Below are positions 6,316 to 50,519 of a stretch of DNA of 64,000 nucleotides, piece after piece (position 1 is the first letter of the stretch; every line of letters begins with the position of its first letter). Under the pieces are notes generated by a model. It ran no database searches and had not been told where the DNA came from. It saw only the letters and a list, made by a program, of their open reading frames with translations. The DNA is from Octopus vulgaris (lineage: Eukaryota): contig OX597814.1 of assembly GCA_951406725.2 (NCBI GenBank), positions 217,124,001 to 217,188,000 on the forward strand. The letters run 5' to 3'. A program made the position numbers and the translations under genes.

Positions 6316-6581
6316 GCGCAACAAGCATTTCTTCCAGCTTGCTGTCTTTAATTGTTTCTCTTATGGGAAAAATAGGTTAATTGGTTATAATGTCTATAGT
6401 ACATTATACATGAAAGACAAAGTTGATCAGAGTGGGATTTGAACTCAGAATGCAAGGAGCCAGAAGAGATACTAAAAGCTGCAAAAATAATATGCACTGG
6501 GCTAAATACTTTGTAGTAGCAAAATAATTTCTTACATCAGCACAAGGTCTTAATTTTTGGAACAAAGGAAATAGTTTAATG

Positions 6582-7101
6582 CTGTGGTTCCCAACTGGGG
6601 TCCATATAAAATTTTTTAATGCAATTCCTAATGATATCTCTCTATATATAAACGGCAGTTTGTCTGTCAGGTTGTACCCTCACCCTGACCACGGCTTTCA
6701 ACCGATTCTGATGAAACTTGACACACACATAGCCCAATGTCATAATTCAAAACTAACGCAGCGAAAATTTTGAAAAGTTCCCCCAGTTCTGAAAAAAATC
6801 GATAAATTCGACATGGGGTCAAGAATCAGAAACACAAACCACAGACTGTCTAGGGGACGCAACTCGACCTTTTTAACTCGCAAAAAAAAAAATTTACCAT
6901 TTTTTTCTATTTTTTGGCTATAACTCTCTAAAAATGCTTTATAGTTATTTCCCTTACAAACCCGAGCAACGCGGGGCAATACTGCTAGTTTAATAATAAA
7001 GATAAAACAGAATTTTTTGAACATTGAATGACTATGAAGGACCATTGGAGTAAAATAGGAATTAAAGTGGTCCATAGATAAAAAATGGTAGAGTACCACT
7101 A
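6582..7101. mobile_element. hAT (Charlie/Buster-like) MITE carrying a Helitron insertion
   Basis: TIR CTGTGGTTCCCAAC / GGTAGAGTACCACTA; degenerate 8-bp TSD GTTTAATG / ATCTAATG with central TA; homologous to 47083-47937. Confidence 0.65.
6637..6988 (+). mobile_element. Non-autonomous Helitron H1
   Basis: 5' TC(TCTC)TATATATAAA, 3' hairpin CCCG-AGCAACG-CGGG followed by CTAG, inserted between A and T with no TSD. Confidence 0.85.
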
Positions 7102-7475
7102 ATCTAATGTATCCACCCCAGGATTTCCCTGGTACTTCATTTTCCCAACACTTGTGAAGAAGTAAAGTGGATCTTGAGGATCTGGGTCCAACTTGAAATG
7201 CTTGCCAAAGTACCTTCAAATTACATCCTAGAAAGAACATGTAATTATGATGTCATTAATGGGGTTTAAATGACAGTATTAATTCTTAAATGCAAATTTG
7301 AGTCATCATGTTAAAAGAGATGTATTTATTGAAAATATTTATTACAACCATTCAGTTTTATAAAAGTTCTTGATACAAATCATGACACAGCAACCTATTC
7401 TCTCAGTCATATTGACATAAGATTGATAATGCTTAACCTGTTTGCATGTGTTTATATACATATATACATATATAT

Positions 7476-34847: not shown

Positions 34848-35162
34848 TATCATCATCATCATCATCGTTTAATGTCCGTTTTCCGCGCTAGCACGGGTTG
34901 GACGGTTCGACTGGGGTCTGGGAAGCCAGGAGACTGCACCAGGCTCCAGTCTGATCTGGCAGAGTTTCTACAGCTGGATGCCCTTCCTAACGCCAACCAC
35001 TCCGCAAGTGTAGTGGGTGCTTTTTACGTGCCACCTGCACAGGTGGAAGTCGAGGCGGTGCTGGCATCGGCCACGTTCAGATGGTGCTTTTTATGTGCCA
35101 CCGGCACAGAAGCCATTTGAGGTGGGGTTGGCATTGGTCACGTTCGGATGGTGCTTTTTATG
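34848..35162 (-). mobile_element. SINE-like family C
   Basis: Family C block, (CAT)n on the plus strand, about 3 units. Confidence 0.8.
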
Positions 35163-35173
35163 TTTGGATGATA

Positions 35174-38799: not shown

Positions 38800-39503
38800 T
38801 TTACATCACATGACCTCAGAGCGTTGGGCCTCACTGAGGCAATGGCGAAGGACCAAGATCTCTGGAGATATGCTGTGACTGCAAAGATCCGGGCTGCTTC
38901 CTGCACCAGTTCCGCATAGCCCCTGCCCATTCAAAGTACCCTGGATCCCAGAACGTCCCGCTGTGCTTGAGGAGACCTGTTGAGATAAGTACATGTACAT
39001 GAACATCGAAATAAATATCAATGGAAATAGTAGTTGTGATACCTGTGCCGGTGGCACATAAAGAGCACCATCCGAATGTGGCTGTAGCCAGCGCCGCCTC
39101 GACTGGCTTCTGTGCCGGTAGCACATAAAAAGCACCATCCGAACGTGGCCGATGCCAGCGGCGCCCCGATTGGCTCCTGTGCCGGTGGCACATAAAAAGC
39201 ACCATCCGAACGTGGCCGTTGCCAGTGATGCCTTGGCTGGCTTCCGTGCCGGTGGCACGTTAAAAGCTCCAACCGATCGTGGCCGATGCCGGACTTCCCC
39301 CGGCATCTGTGCAGGTGGCACATAAAAGCACCCACTACACTCGCGGAGTGGTTGGCATTAGGAAGGGCATCCAGCTGTAGAAACTCTGCCAGATCAGACT
39401 GGAGCCTGGTGCTGCCCCTGGCTTCCCAGACCCCGGTCAAACCATCCAACCCGTGCTAGCGCGGAAAACGGACGTTTAAACGATGATGATGATGATGATG
39501 ATG
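38800..39503 (+). mobile_element. SINE-like family C, longest copy (5 units)
   Basis: Five 62-67-bp units at 39045-39335, family C block, (GAT)n tail; 5' boundary approximate. Confidence 0.8.
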
Positions 39504-42139: not shown

Positions 42140-42638
42140 ATCAAATCAAAATCGATGAACATCAATGGAATTTGTATTTTTGTGGTACCAGTGCCGGTGG
42201 CACATAAGAAAACCATCCGAACGTGGCCGTAGCCAGTACCGCATCGACTGGCCTCCGTGCTGTGGGCACGTAACAAACACCATCCGATCGTGGGCGTGCC
42301 AGCCTCGCCTGGCCTCCGTACTGGTGGCATGTAAAAAACACCATCCGAGCGTGGCCGTTCGCCAGCCTCGTCTGGCACCTGTGTCGATGGCACACAAAAA
42401 AACACATCCGAGCGTGGCCGTTCGCCAGCCTCGTCTGGCACCTGTGTCGGTGGCACATAAAAAGCACCCACTACACTCACGGAGTAGTTGGCGTTAGGAA
42501 GGGCATCCAGCTGTAGAAACACTGCCAGATCTGACTGGAGCCTGGTGCAGCCTTCTGGCTTCCCAGACCCCAGTTGAACCGTCCAACCCATGCTAGCATG
42601 GAAAGCGGACGTTAACCGATGATGATGATGATGATGAT
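42140..42638 (+). mobile_element. SINE-like family C (5 units)
   Basis: Units at 42192-42470, (GAT)n tail. Confidence 0.8.
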
Positions 42639-43551: not shown

Positions 43552-43847
43552 AAAAATAATGATTGTGATCACTTGTCTCGACATCATGTGACTGTTGTAA
43601 ATGAATGTCATTTGTTTCCATGTTGGTCATGGGGGAATATTACCTTATTTGGCAACAGGAAATGCTCCAACCATAAAGAAACCAAACTATCAGATTCGTT
43701 CACAGAAAAAGCGGATGTTAAAATAATGATGATTATAGGTGGTTAATTAGAATATTGGATAGAATGATGGAACAAATACCATGTTTTGAAGAAAAAAAGG
43801 TTAAATCAAGTAGTGTCTAATTTTGTTCAGTGGTTTACATCAGTCAT

Positions 43848-44243
43848 GTGCAGGTGGCACATAAAAAGCACCATCCCAACGTGGCCGATGCCAGCGCTGC
43901 CCCGACTGGCTTCTGTGCCGGTGGCACATAAAAAGCACCATCCGAACGTGGCCGTTGCCAGCGACGCCTTAGCTGGCTTCCATGCTGGTGGCACGTTAAA
44001 AGCTCCAACCGATCGTGGCCGATGCCGGACCGCCCTGGCACCTGTGCAGGTGGCACGTAAAAAAGCACCCACTACACTCGCGGAGTGGTTGGCGTTAGGA
44101 AGTGCATCCAGCTGTAGAAACCCTGCCAGATCAGACTGGAGTCTGGTGCAGCCCCTGGCTTCCCAGACCCCCGGTCGAACAGTCCAACCCGTGCTAGCAC
44201 GGAAAACAGACGTGAAACGATGATGATGATGATGATGATGATG
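43848..44243 (+). mobile_element. SINE-like family C (4 units)
   Basis: Units, family C block, (GAT)n tail. Confidence 0.8.
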
Positions 44244-46334: not shown

Positions 46335-47082
46335 TTAAATCTAATCATATATTTGAGTGGTGATTATTTTATCTCTATAGGGAGGGAAGGTAAAGTTGAG
46401 TGCAGAGGATTTTGAACTCAGTATATAAAAGGAAACTAAATACCACAAAATATATTTCTTTCTCCTGATGCCTTACCATTCTAATACTCACAGCCTCTGC
46501 TTTCTACCATGGCCACAAGATTTTGTGAAAGAATATATTTGACTCCAGTATTTGACTGGATCTTTATTTTGTAAGCCCCAGAATGAAAGAAGATAAAGTC
46601 AACCTCAATTGAACACAGAAAGTAAAGAAATGTAAAATTAAGGTGATGATAATAATAATGGTAATTATTTTGATGACGATGATGTCAATAACAATGATGA
46701 TGATGAAGAGGACAATGGTAATGTTGAGGATGATGACAATGATAATGATGAGTATGTTGCCACAAATGAGGATGGTGATAAATTCTTCTTTTGCTTCAAG
46801 GTCAGAACATAAAATGTTGCCCCAAAAAGGTAGTATTAGAGACAAAAATATAGCAGTTATAAAAAACACAACCATGCATAAATAATGGAAAGCTATTATA
46901 AATGCAAAATATCTATTAAAAGTATAAAAATTAAATAGAATTCTAATGAAAGAACAAAATTACTATCTAAAATTTCAAACCCAAAGTAAACTCTGTGCTT
47001 CAATTTATAACAGAAATAGGAGGGACAAAGGAATACTTTAAAAGCAGCCTTAAATTACCTCAAACTTGTCATTCTACTAGCT

Positions 47083-47937
47083 TAGGGGTTTCTCACCTGG
47101 AGTGTATATGGCCCTTGGGGGTCCATATAAGATTTTGTTGCTAAAATTTATCTGCAATAAATAGGTTATACTTCTGCAACACATAAGTATTTTAACAACA
47201 TTTTACACAATTCCTAATAATATCTTCTTTATATATAAAAGTGAAGTTGTGTGTCTGTCTCCTACGATTTAGATTCCTAACTACTCCCACATTTTGCGGT
47301 GCAGTTTAACCAAAACCGGGTATCTTATAGTCGTGATTCATATCGAGCCCTTCTGGGTATTAGCACGCGTCTACGATGAGTCTATGATTTAAAAAAAAAA
47401 TTACCATAATTTTTTTTCCATTTTAATGCATTTTTTTCGCTATTATATAAGGGAAGTAACTCTCTAAAATGTCTACGATGAGTCAACGATTTTTAAAAAA
47501 ATTTACCATCATTTTTTTTCCATTTTTAATGCATTTTATGTCATTTTTTGGCTATAACTCTCTAAAAATGCTTATATAGTTATTTCCCTTACAAACCCGA
47601 GCAACGTCGGGAGATTCTGCTAGTTTAATTATAAAAATGATTTTTTTAAATAGTAAAGCGAGTAGCCTCATCAAAGTGACAGTTGAACGTTACTACTAGT
47701 TTAACCCCAGGCAGATTCTCTACCAGCTGGTTTTTGGTGCAAAGTTCTGCAGTGTTTATATACAATACATTGCTATCAGGGGGAGCAAACCCCTATTACC
47801 CTCCAGCAGCTAACAGGATCGTGGGACTGGCCCAGTTTCGAGCTTTTTTTTTTAAACATCAAATAACTAGAAGAGTCCATTCAAGTAATATAGGAATCAA
47901 AAAGTTCCATAGGTAAAAAAATGGTAGAGACACTCTG
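47083..47937. mobile_element. hAT MITE (same family as 6582-7101) carrying a Helitron
   Basis: TIR TAGGGGTTTCTCACC / GGTAGAGACACTCTG; degenerate TSD TACTAGCT / CACTTGCT; shared GGGGTCCATATAA and ATAGGAAT..AAAG..CCATAG.TAAAAAATGGTAGAG blocks. Confidence 0.65.
47223..47623 (+). mobile_element. Non-autonomous Helitron H2
   Basis: A|TCTTCTTTATATATAAAA ... CCCGAGCAACGTCGGG hairpin ... CTAG|T; internal tandem duplication of about 100 bp. Confidence 0.85.
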
Positions 47938-49513
47938 CACTTGCTAGAATATGGTGAATGGATTGCTGTCAACTTTTTGAACTAAGAAAACTAGATTCCC
48001 TTTAGTTTTTCAAATTGCTTGTGATATCTGTTGGCTATAATTCCTAACAGACATGATACCAGTTTGTAGAAATGGGGTGGGATTTGAACTCAGAATGTAT
48101 AATGCTAAAAGAGGTACCACAAGCCATCCAATTCTACACTAACAAATCTACCAACTCACTACCCTGAATGAGTATTTTTTTTTTTTATTGTCCCACCCTG
48201 AATGAGAGGTAAAGTTGACATTAGGATCTGAACTCAAAGTGCAGAGTTGTAACAACTACTGTGAGGTATTTCTATCCAGCACCCTAATGACTCTGCCAAT
48301 TCACTACCTAGAAATAGTAACCAAATATATACCTCATATAACACCTATAGTTTTAAAAGAGGAAAAACACATTGGATAATGCAGTAATTCTTGATATACT
48401 ATATCAGAAGAAAAGAAAAAACAAAAACTGATTGGATGGTCATGACTGGATCACAGTTTAGTTTATCTGGACTAAAAAGCAATAACTACAACAATAAAGT
48501 AAAGAAACTGGCAGTGGTGGTAGATAAACAGTTTTGAAGAATTTTTTACATATACACAAAGGACACATATGGGTTTACCTATGGAGCGATTCTTTGTGAT
48601 GTATTTGGTGTAATAACGGTAAATCCATGGTTCCAAAGTATTCTCTTCCTTTACTTAGTGAAAATATCGCTGCAATTTTTATCGTTATAAAAACATGCAT
48701 GTATATGTTTCCTTGTATGTGTGAGTGTTGTTTAGCATCAGGTTGTCCCTGGTGGAGCAAAACTATAATCAAATATATTTTAGCCATGACATTTCCATTT
48801 TGTCTTTCTTTTCTATTTTCAGATGTAGTGTATCATAGTAGATTAAAATCTTCCTTATCTAATATGCCCTTTCATTTTTACGACAGTGGGGTAAGATTTG
48901 AAGAAGATTTGGCTGCCATTTCTAAAAGACTTAATGACCGCATTGGCATGTGTGTGTGTTAAATTGTGCTTTTGGTCATTAGCTGACTTTGAAAATATTA
49001 TTTTTCTTCATCCATTCATAAGAAACTATATTAACTACAGAAGAGCAGTATGCAAGAGCTTTGTAATGTAACTGTAGGTATATAAGTCACAGGAGATTGG
49101 AATTGGTTTAGTTCTGAAAGCAATTAATTAGATTTTCTTCACGCTTTGTCTATACCCGCATAGATTCCAGTGGCTCCATATAATTGAATATGAAATATAA
49201 ATTGTGACAAACAGATAAAGAAAGCCAGATAGACAGATAGGAAAGTAGCTAGAATGGAAAAGATGAAAAGAGGAAGAATTGGGATGAAAGTAAAGTCTTG
49301 TCTTAATCCGGTGTCTGAGCAGATGTAGAAAAGTGTGAGATAGCATTTCTTGATAGGAAGAAAAGTGTAGGGGTGTGTGTGTGTGTGTGTGTGAATAATC
49401 AGGATCTCAACAACCATCCTGGGTCAATCTGATAAGAAGAATTGATTAGCAGAAGATGTGACGAGGTTCAGTGATAAGTAATGTAAAACTGGATAAGAGG
49501 AGGTAAATAGGGA

Positions 49514-50428: not shown

Positions 50429-50519
50429 CTAGCAGTAATACCCGTTGTTGATCGGGTAATTACTTTACTCTTTCTCAGGAGCCACATTCAAAGTATTATT
50501 ATATATATATATATATAGA
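50429..50519 (-). mobile_element. Miniature Helitron H5 (91 bp)
   Basis: Minus strand A|TCTATATAT.. TACCCG-ATCAACAA-CGGGTA hairpin ..CTGCTAG|T. Confidence 0.7.

What the first reader, a model, noticed from the sequence alone, without database searches (positions are those of the whole stretch)
6582..7101. Two different Helitrons sit at the same nucleotide of two independent copies of one hAT MITE
Seen: H1 is inserted at CAATTCCTAATGATA|TTTAATAATAAA in MITE 6582-7101, and H2 at CAATTCCTAATAATA|TTTAATTATAAA in MITE 47083-47937. The two MITE copies are old, diverged and have different TSDs. The Helitrons look younger (CpGs retained), share only their last 100 bp or so and have unrelated 5' bodies. 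Established: Helitrons are described as inserting at A|T with little further specificity. Inference: either this Helitron group is sequence-targeted and uses a MITE as a recurrent landing site, or a MITE-Helitron composite transposed and later swapped bodies. The apparent age mismatch favours independent targeting.
Basis: partly seen in the sequence, partly recalled or inferred. Interest (0 to 1): 0.72.

Follow-up and report, generated by a model that had tools for sequence, protein, structure and literature searches.

The report
Helitrons read a two-part landing signal
Dozens of rolling-circle jumping genes (Helitrons) sit at the same base of separate copies of a small transposon, and across this genome they favour an A-T step followed 7-8 bases later by ATAAA, likely because their enzyme reads that word, which also occurs near their own left end and would make their landing sites far more predictable than usually described.

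Summary
Of 72 examined Helitron ends followed by this sequence, 52 lie in the MITE; about 1.6% of MITE copies are filled at this base. The insertions are independent: filled MITEs differ by 26%, same-subfamily Helitrons by 6%, five Helitron body types occur, and two relatives' contigs show the orthologous site of H1 empty.

The MITE is not a dedicated landing pad: it takes 0.2-0.5% of these Helitrons. About a third of all copies (9,211 of about 28,000) sit at A|T-N5-6-ATAAA, a 50-fold enrichment. A model trained outside the MITE ranks this base first of 66 A|T sites. A roughly four-fold residual excess is unexplained.

ATAAA also closes the AT-rich block of the elements' own left end. By-eye counts of published wheat de novo insertions show the analogous TAG at +7/+8 (32 of 86, mirror control 5), matching that element's left end; the passages I read report only AT. 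Enzyme readout of the word is inferred. A near-identical, intact 6.1-kb autonomous family makes it testable. The key structural paper was unavailable.

The parts
6574..6581 (+). Left 8-bp target-site duplication of MITE1
   Evidence: 6 of 8 match to 7102-7109
6582..6636 (+). MITE1 left arm with terminal inverted repeat; about 90 nt deleted relative to the family
   Evidence: matches family positions 3-26 and 115-142
6637..6988 (+). Helitron H1, non-autonomous, TC...hairpin...CTAG; its subfamily shares its left 250 nt with the young autonomous family
   Evidence: orthologous empty site in runs X4 and X19
6961..6975 (+). 3' hairpin of H1
   Evidence: sequence
6989..7101 (+). MITE1 right arm with terminal inverted repeat
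   Evidence: 86% to family over 112 nt
6996..7000 (+). Target word ATAAA at +8 from the insertion point of H1
   Evidence: motif statistics
7102..7109 (+). Right 8-bp target-site duplication of MITE1
47075..47082 (+). Left 8-bp target-site duplication of MITE2
   Evidence: 6 of 8 match to 47938-47945, read
47083..47222 (+). MITE2 left arm
   Evidence: 2,065 genome candidates, 40 scored; 87% to family
47223..47623 (+). Helitron H2, non-autonomous, ~400-nt subfamily
   Evidence: 94-95% to nearest relatives
47624..47937 (+). MITE2 right arm, interrupted by an extra insert
47631..47635 (+). Target word ATAAA at +8 from the insertion point of H2
47649..47835 (.). Extra ~190-nt repeated insert inside MITE2 (ends approximate, unclassified)
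   Evidence: no match in fetched loci; many contigs of all four runs cover parts of it
47938..47945 (+). Right 8-bp target-site duplication of MITE2

Best explanation
H1 and H2 are independent insertions of young non-autonomous Helitrons into old copies of a hAT-type MITE, at a base that matches a genome-wide two-part Helitron target (an A|T step, then ATAAA 7-8 bases downstream), likely because the RepHel transposase reads that word on the target strand as it likely does near the element's own left end. Shown: independence, the motif, its fixed spacing and orientation, the rank of this site within the MITE, and a fill of about 1.6%. Inferred: that RepHel itself reads the word, that the young 6.1-kb family supplied the enzyme, and that finer context or regional bias gives the last ~4-fold.
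For: Independence. Contigs of runs X4 and X19 join 6436-6634 to 6989-7231 with unique flanks and no H1. Over 190 same-subfamily pairs, Helitrons differ by 6.3% and their host MITEs by 26.1%. Five unrelated body groups occur among 51 filled copies. Filled-filled, filled-empty and empty-empty MITE distances are 26.2, 26.7 and 27.1%. Motif. ATAAA at +7/+8 in 27 of 60 non-microsatellite flanks vs 0.71% of A|T sites, with 17 at +7, 10 at +8 and 0 at +6 or +9. Held-out set 4 of 18; loose motif 13 of 18 vs 7%. Genome-wide 9,211 at N5-6 vs 1,102 at N8-9, of whose first 100 rows 60 are Helitron-Helitron junctions. The result is 50-fold. Upstream, A at -3 in 30 of 40 and G at -2 in 0 of 43. Site rank. 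First of 66 A|T sites and first again with upstream bases added. The predicted reverse site at +15 holds 4 Helitrons. A Helitron-internal copy of the same 13-mer with G at -2 makes 37 of 100 empty rows but 0 of 72 filled ones. Own-end link. 10 of 21 head-to-tail junctions join different subfamilies. In wheat, TAG at +7/+8 in 32 of 86 Feng8 rows vs 5 mirror, p=5e-7, and 11 vs 3 of 48 Xuan1 rows, p=0.04 (by eye); that element's left end carries TATAGT. Here TAA is at +8/+9 in 47 of 91 flanks and TAG in 0.
Against: The MITE site is still about 4-fold above the motif-class rate: 1.0% (CI 0.6-1.8) vs 0.25% for exact-end copies. The weight matrix is poorly calibrated in absolute terms: it predicts 0.4% for the consensus site and its top bin held 0 of 38 left-out insertions. 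Its second-ranked site (+117) had 0 hits. The held-out strict-motif rate (4 of 18) and second-family rate (3 of 16) are below the training rate. The word lies at +10 to +13 in the left ends but at +7 to +9 in targets, so the mimicry is of the word, not the spacing. The AU test does not reject one clade of filled MITEs (p=0.70). Wheat counts are by eye and needed the minus-strand Feng8 rows read reversed. No contig bridging the H2 site with long sides was listed. No biochemistry.
Confidence: 0.75

Rival explanations
1. The motif is real but is set by a host factor or by DNA physics rather than by RepHel: TATAAA resembles a TATA box, so a TATA-binding protein or local melting could place the cut 6-7 bases upstream.
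For: T precedes ATAAA in about 60% of aligned flanks. (TA)n tracts are also frequent targets (14 of 74 flanks). Helraiser favours AT-rich DNA and promoters (PMC4778049, passages). The TATA-box likeness is recalled knowledge.
Against: The wheat word is TAG, not TAA, and follows that element's own left end. Spacing is fixed at two positions and orientation-specific, which is hard to get from melting alone.
Confidence: 0.15
2. These Helitrons recognise something particular to the MITE (longer context, structure or a bound protein), making it a true recurrent landing pad beyond the general motif.
For: About 4-fold excess over the motif class. 52 of 72 filled 13-mers are in the MITE, while only 10 of the first 100 empty rows are (that region is about 3-fold poorer in MITEs).
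Against: The site takes 0.2-0.5% of insertions. Its upstream ATA is the commonest context at non-MITE insertions (16 of 39). 20 of 72 filled 13-mers lack the MITE right arm. 0 of 29 other top MITE hits are filled at the site.
Confidence: 0.08
3. One ancestral MITE-Helitron composite transposed, and Helitron bodies were later swapped or converted.
For: The AU test does not reject one clade of filled copies (p=0.70). Helitron and MITE distances correlate weakly (r=0.27).
Against: The orthologous MITE1 is empty in two relatives' runs. Helitron 6% vs MITE 26% divergence. 33 label changes vs 36 shuffled, with 91 of 500 shuffles as low. Each filled copy examined has its own flanks and duplication. 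Five body groups.
Confidence: 0.02

Closest known systems
Canonical Helitron1 (HLE1) insertion, e.g. Helraiser (PMC4778049, PMC5876387; passages read)
   Same: 5' TC, 3' hairpin plus CTAG, insertion between A and T without duplication. Helraiser prefers AT-rich DNA within about 20 bp, most on the 3' side. Head-to-tail arrays are reported.
   Different: The passages describe AT-richness only. Here there is a defined word at two fixed spacings in a third of copies. I could not see the logo figure, which may show it.
Wheat Xuan-Feng Helitrons (PMC13286980; passages and Supplementary Table 3 read whole, two rows of the file listing element ends)
   Same: Active Helitron1 family with de novo insertions at AT. 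My by-eye count shows a downstream word at +7/+8.
   Different: The word is TAG, as in its own left end, not TAA. The passages I read report only the AT preference.
hAT-superfamily MITEs with 8-bp nnnTAnnn duplications (Buster/Charlie type; label recalled, from no call)
   Same: ~254 nt, 14-bp terminal inverted repeats starting CAG, 8-bp duplications centred on TA.
   Different: No autonomous hAT partner was sought. Here the MITE is only a passive carrier of a good target.
Target-specific transposons such as Dada and R2 (search listing and abstract starts only)
   Same: Repeated insertion at one nucleotide of a multicopy sequence.
   Different: Those are described as specific for their target. 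Here the site takes under 1% of insertions.

Membership tests
Helitron1 (HLE1), non-autonomous | 5' TC and 3' CTRR with a subterminal hairpin | tested here: met
Helitron1 (HLE1), non-autonomous | Insertion between A and T without target-site duplication | tested here: met
   empty paralogs and the empty ortholog of H1
Helitron1 (HLE1), non-autonomous | Autonomous RepHel element sharing the ends | tested here: met
   6.1-kb family with a 1,722-aa ORF, PF14214 + PF05970. Left 250 nt is 95-97% to H1's subfamily; 3' 33-36 nt is 86-89% to five of the seven subfamily representatives tested. For H2's subfamily only the 3' end matched by BLAST.
Helitron1 (HLE1), non-autonomous | Mobilisation in trans through circular intermediates | not testable with these tools
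   needs an assay
hAT-type MITE | Short, high-copy element with terminal inverted repeats | tested here: met
   254-nt family with 14-bp inverted ends; 1,165 exact empty-site hits. Coding capacity was not scanned.
hAT-type MITE | 8-bp target-site duplication | tested here: met
   31 of 57 copies with both ends found match at 6-8 of 8; T at position 4 in 46 and A at position 5 in 49 of 57
hAT-type MITE | Autonomous hAT transposase element with the same ends | not tested
Strictly target-specific transposon (Dada/R2-like) | Most insertions fall at one multicopy target | tested here: not met
   0.2-0.5% at this site; none of the first 100 listed ends shows the MITE's usual downstream 12-mer (by eye)

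The most novel reading that the evidence does not exclude
Helitron1 transposases generally choose targets with a two-part code: the scissile A|T plus a short word 7-9 bases downstream that copies the word closing the AT-rich block of their own left end (ATAAA here, TAG in wheat). Each family would then have a predictable, possibly re-programmable target. Self-insertion into other Helitrons' left ends, (TA)n targeting and hotspots inside other transposons would all follow from one donor-like readout of the target.
Probability: 0.45. Interest if true: 0.78.

Novelty: new variant of a known kind. Interest (0 to 1): 0.6.

Why it matters
Helitrons are usually described as inserting at any A|T in AT-rich DNA. 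A fixed-spacing word used by a third of about 28,000 copies would make their landing sites predictable. It would also explain same-base hotspots in other repeats and mixed tandem arrays, and it warns that such shared insertions are not markers of common descent. If the word follows each family's own left end, it tells how RepHel captures its target, which matters for Helitron-based gene delivery. A near-identical, intact autonomous family is at hand to test it.

Tried and rejected
Tree test of monophyly: the MITE tree is a star (0 of 105 inner branches starred) and the AU test is uninformative, so divergence mismatch and the empty ortholog were used instead.

Weight matrix as an absolute predictor: rejected as poorly calibrated; used only for rank. 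Rates come from counts.

CpG content as an age proxy: weak, because the MITE family has almost no CpG; divergence was used.

Run X17 (most distant relative) has almost no cover over the H1 and H2 bodies while covering the MITE and the flanks of MITE2. No contig joins across, so this is not used as evidence. Short-sided joints at 47223-47847 are probably paralogs and were ignored.

Second Helitron family: about half of the rows are the inner arm of a palindromic end. 16 ends remained after filtering, and 2 of them may still be inner arms.

Only two stretches of the MITE were tested for other insertions: forward 113-129 (0 hits) and reverse 141-157 (8 hits, 5 with clear Helitron ends). The rest is untested.

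Two filled copies within one 64-kb window is not very unlikely by itself: 0.1-1 such windows are expected for 100-300 filled copies.

Literature: ten searches showed no listing that describes a fixed-spacing Helitron target word. The Helraiser structure paper (Kosek 2021) and Yang and Bennetzen 2009 are not held and may anticipate part of this. Figures, including both published logos, could not be seen.

Full report
OBSERVATION. The two insertions are as described. H1 (6637-6988) and H2 (47223-47623) begin TC, end in a hairpin plus CTAG, and sit between host A and T in the same context. They share the last 92 nt at 89% and little else.

THE HOST ELEMENT. The host is a family of about 254 nt with 14-bp inverted ends. 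Its left arm has 2,065 candidates, 40 scored. 31 of 57 copies with both ends found have 8-bp flanks matching at 6-8 positions, centred on TA, which fits a hAT-type MITE. No autonomous hAT was sought. None of the 29 other top hits fetched is filled at the site.

RECURRENCE. The filled right junction occurs 79 times, control 5. I examined 72; 52 continue into the MITE right arm above the null maximum and 20 do not, a few of which may be truncated MITEs. The left junction gave 30 hits, of which 21 begin a Helitron by my reading. The empty site gave 1,165 hits, control 11. I applied two corrections read by eye: 79% of Helitron starts fit the pattern, and 20 of 29 empty sites start TTTA. The fill is then 1.6%, CI 1.0-2.4.

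INDEPENDENCE. 51 filled copies had both arms. They are 15.9% from consensus, as are pattern-picked empty copies (16.0%). Pairwise distances are 26.2% filled-filled, 26.7% filled-empty and 27.1% empty-empty. Their Helitrons fall into five unrelated body groups, 91-95% identical within subfamilies. Over 190 pairs of one subfamily, Helitrons differ by 6.3% and MITEs by 26.1%. The tree is a star: 33 label changes against 36 shuffled, and the AU test does not reject one clade, p=0.70, so the tree alone decides nothing. The direct proof is for H1: one 471-nt contig in each of runs X4 and X19 (two other organism labels) joins 6436-6634 (6438 in X19) to 6989-7231, unique flanks included, with two letters between and no Helitron. 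For H2 no long-sided bridge was listed.

WHY THIS BASE. An exact 14-nt Helitron end occurs 24,828 times under a filter that drops about 12% (correction by eye), so about 28,000 copies. In loci fetched only for that end, ATAAA starts at +7 or +8 in 27 of 60 non-microsatellite flanks (14 of 74 set aside as (TA)n) against 0.71% of A|T sites; counts at +6 and +9 are 0. A held-out set gave 4 of 18, or 13 of 18 with a looser motif against 7%; a second family gave 3 and 10 of 16. Genome-wide, N5-6 spacing gives 9,211 hits and N8-9 gives 1,102, of whose first 100 rows 60 are head-to-tail Helitron junctions (by eye). That is 33% of copies at 0.66% of sites, 50-fold. Counting ATATA too, 57 of 91 flanks fit against 11%, which brings (TA)n targets under the same rule. 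Upstream, -3 is A in 30 of 40 and -2 is never G.

THE SITE WITHIN THE MITE. A matrix trained on these non-MITE flanks ranks the observed base first of 66 A|T sites, with 70% of the weight and 80% with upstream bases. The predicted reverse site at +15 has 4 Helitrons among 8 hits. The forward stretch 113-129, including a site ranked second, has 0. A copy of the same 13-mer inside the Helitrons, with G at -2, makes 37 of the first 100 of 5,844 empty rows (by eye) and none of the 72 filled ones. Per site, for exact-end copies, the rates are 0.005% for any A|T, 0.25% for the motif class and 1.0% for the MITE site. The motif thus explains 50 of about 200-fold; about 4-fold remains, plausibly finer context or regional bias but not shown. 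The matrix under-predicts the absolute rate (0.4%) and is badly calibrated at the top. The site takes 0.2-0.5% of insertions.

LINK TO THE ELEMENT'S OWN END. The left ends here close an AT-rich block with ATAAA, at +10 in H2's subfamily and +12 in H1's. Left ends are themselves joined to other Helitrons' right ends: of 24 junctions found in 20 loci, 21 could be scored and 10 join different subfamilies, so these are not simple concatemers of one template. Insertion into another element's circle is not excluded. In wheat, the 135 de novo insertions of PMC13286980 (Supplementary Table 3, read whole) show TAG at +7/+8 in 32 of 86 Feng8 rows against 5 in the mirror position, and in 11 against 3 of 48 Xuan1 rows (one row of Ns and one duplicate dropped; minus-strand Feng8 rows read reversed; by eye; tests). 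That element's left end begins TCTCTACTACTATAGT. Here TAA stands at +8/+9 in 47 of 91 flanks and TAG in none. The table gives only 10 nt per side, so +9 cannot be seen in wheat. The spacing differs between left end and target in both systems.

THE LIKELY ENZYME. RepHel matches are abundant (150 scored of 1,172 candidates). Of 20 long-ORF loci fetched, 17 form one family; 16 complete copies of 5.6-6.2 kb are 98.1-99.8% identical to one copy over their first 2.5 kb. One has a 1,722-aa ORF with PF14214 and PF05970. Its left 250 nt are 95-97% identical to H1's subfamily. Of its 17 3' flanks, 5 have ATAAA at +7/+8, 10 are (TA)-rich and 2 are near misses (by eye).

MECHANISM. Established for Helraiser (passages): RepHel nicks the left end, makes circles and joins one strand at A|T. 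Inferred here: the enzyme holds the strand 3' of the cut and prefers the same short word it meets in its left end, with a flexible spacer. Any multicopy sequence holding one good match then collects insertions at one base. Rivals are a host factor or melting (0.15), MITE-specific recognition (0.08) and a composite element (0.02).

WHAT IS KNOWN. Passages of PMC4778049 report AT plus AT-richness strongest on the 3' side. Passages of PMC13286980, PMC11417382, PMC5876387 and PMC10288648 report the dinucleotide. Passages of PMC12001565, PMC6591975 and PMC13282606 gave nothing on target words. Ten searches listed nothing on a fixed-spacing word. The structure paper and the maize survey were not held, logo figures could not be seen, one wheat supplement had no text, and the Helraiser supplements were not read. 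The scan's notes held no look-alike and one analogous case for a different superfamily.

VERDICT. Real and independent recurrent insertion, explained mostly by a genome-wide two-part target. The MITE angle is ordinary; the target rule and its match to each element's own end are the result worth testing.

Noticed in passing
L323-L340 except L335 (for example L325:1260-7403): A very young autonomous Helitron family, about 6.1 kb, 98-99.8% identical between copies, many with open RepHel frames of 1,400-1,740 aa; possibly still active.
   Followed up: partly
L289-L308; Several hundred exact head-to-tail Helitron junctions. About half of those scored join different subfamilies, and the upstream unit is usually the ~510-nt subfamily.
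   Followed up: partly
PMC13286980 Supplementary Table 3: Three wheat de novo sites read CTAG|T instead of A|T, resembling a right-end/left-end junction.
   Followed up: no
window 47649-47835: A ~190-nt repeated insert inside MITE2, present in relatives' contigs; unclassified.
   Followed up: partly
window 50429-50460, minus strand: A third Helitron-like 3' end (hairpin plus CTAG) facing a (TA)n tract, with ATATA at +8; its 5' end was not found within 1.5 kb.
   Followed up: partly
L038, L043, L069, L126, L144, L212, L217, L221, L225: Helitron left ends often carry short TC-starting extensions before the usual start, suggesting imprecise or repeated left-end nicking.
   Followed up: no
L259-L288; A Helitron family whose 3' end is one long palindrome with CTAG on both arms, so it reads as an end on either strand.
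   Followed up: partly
G000:C1 217.1 Mb, C9 106.4 Mb, C13 79.0 Mb: Three pairs of the 79 junction hits lie within 130 kb of each other, against roughly 0.3 expected by a hand estimate; suggests regional clustering.
   Followed up: no
window 39043-39332, 42183-42468, 43847-44069, 35016-35163: Dispersed short arrays of a 63-67-nt GC-rich tandem unit.
   Followed up: no
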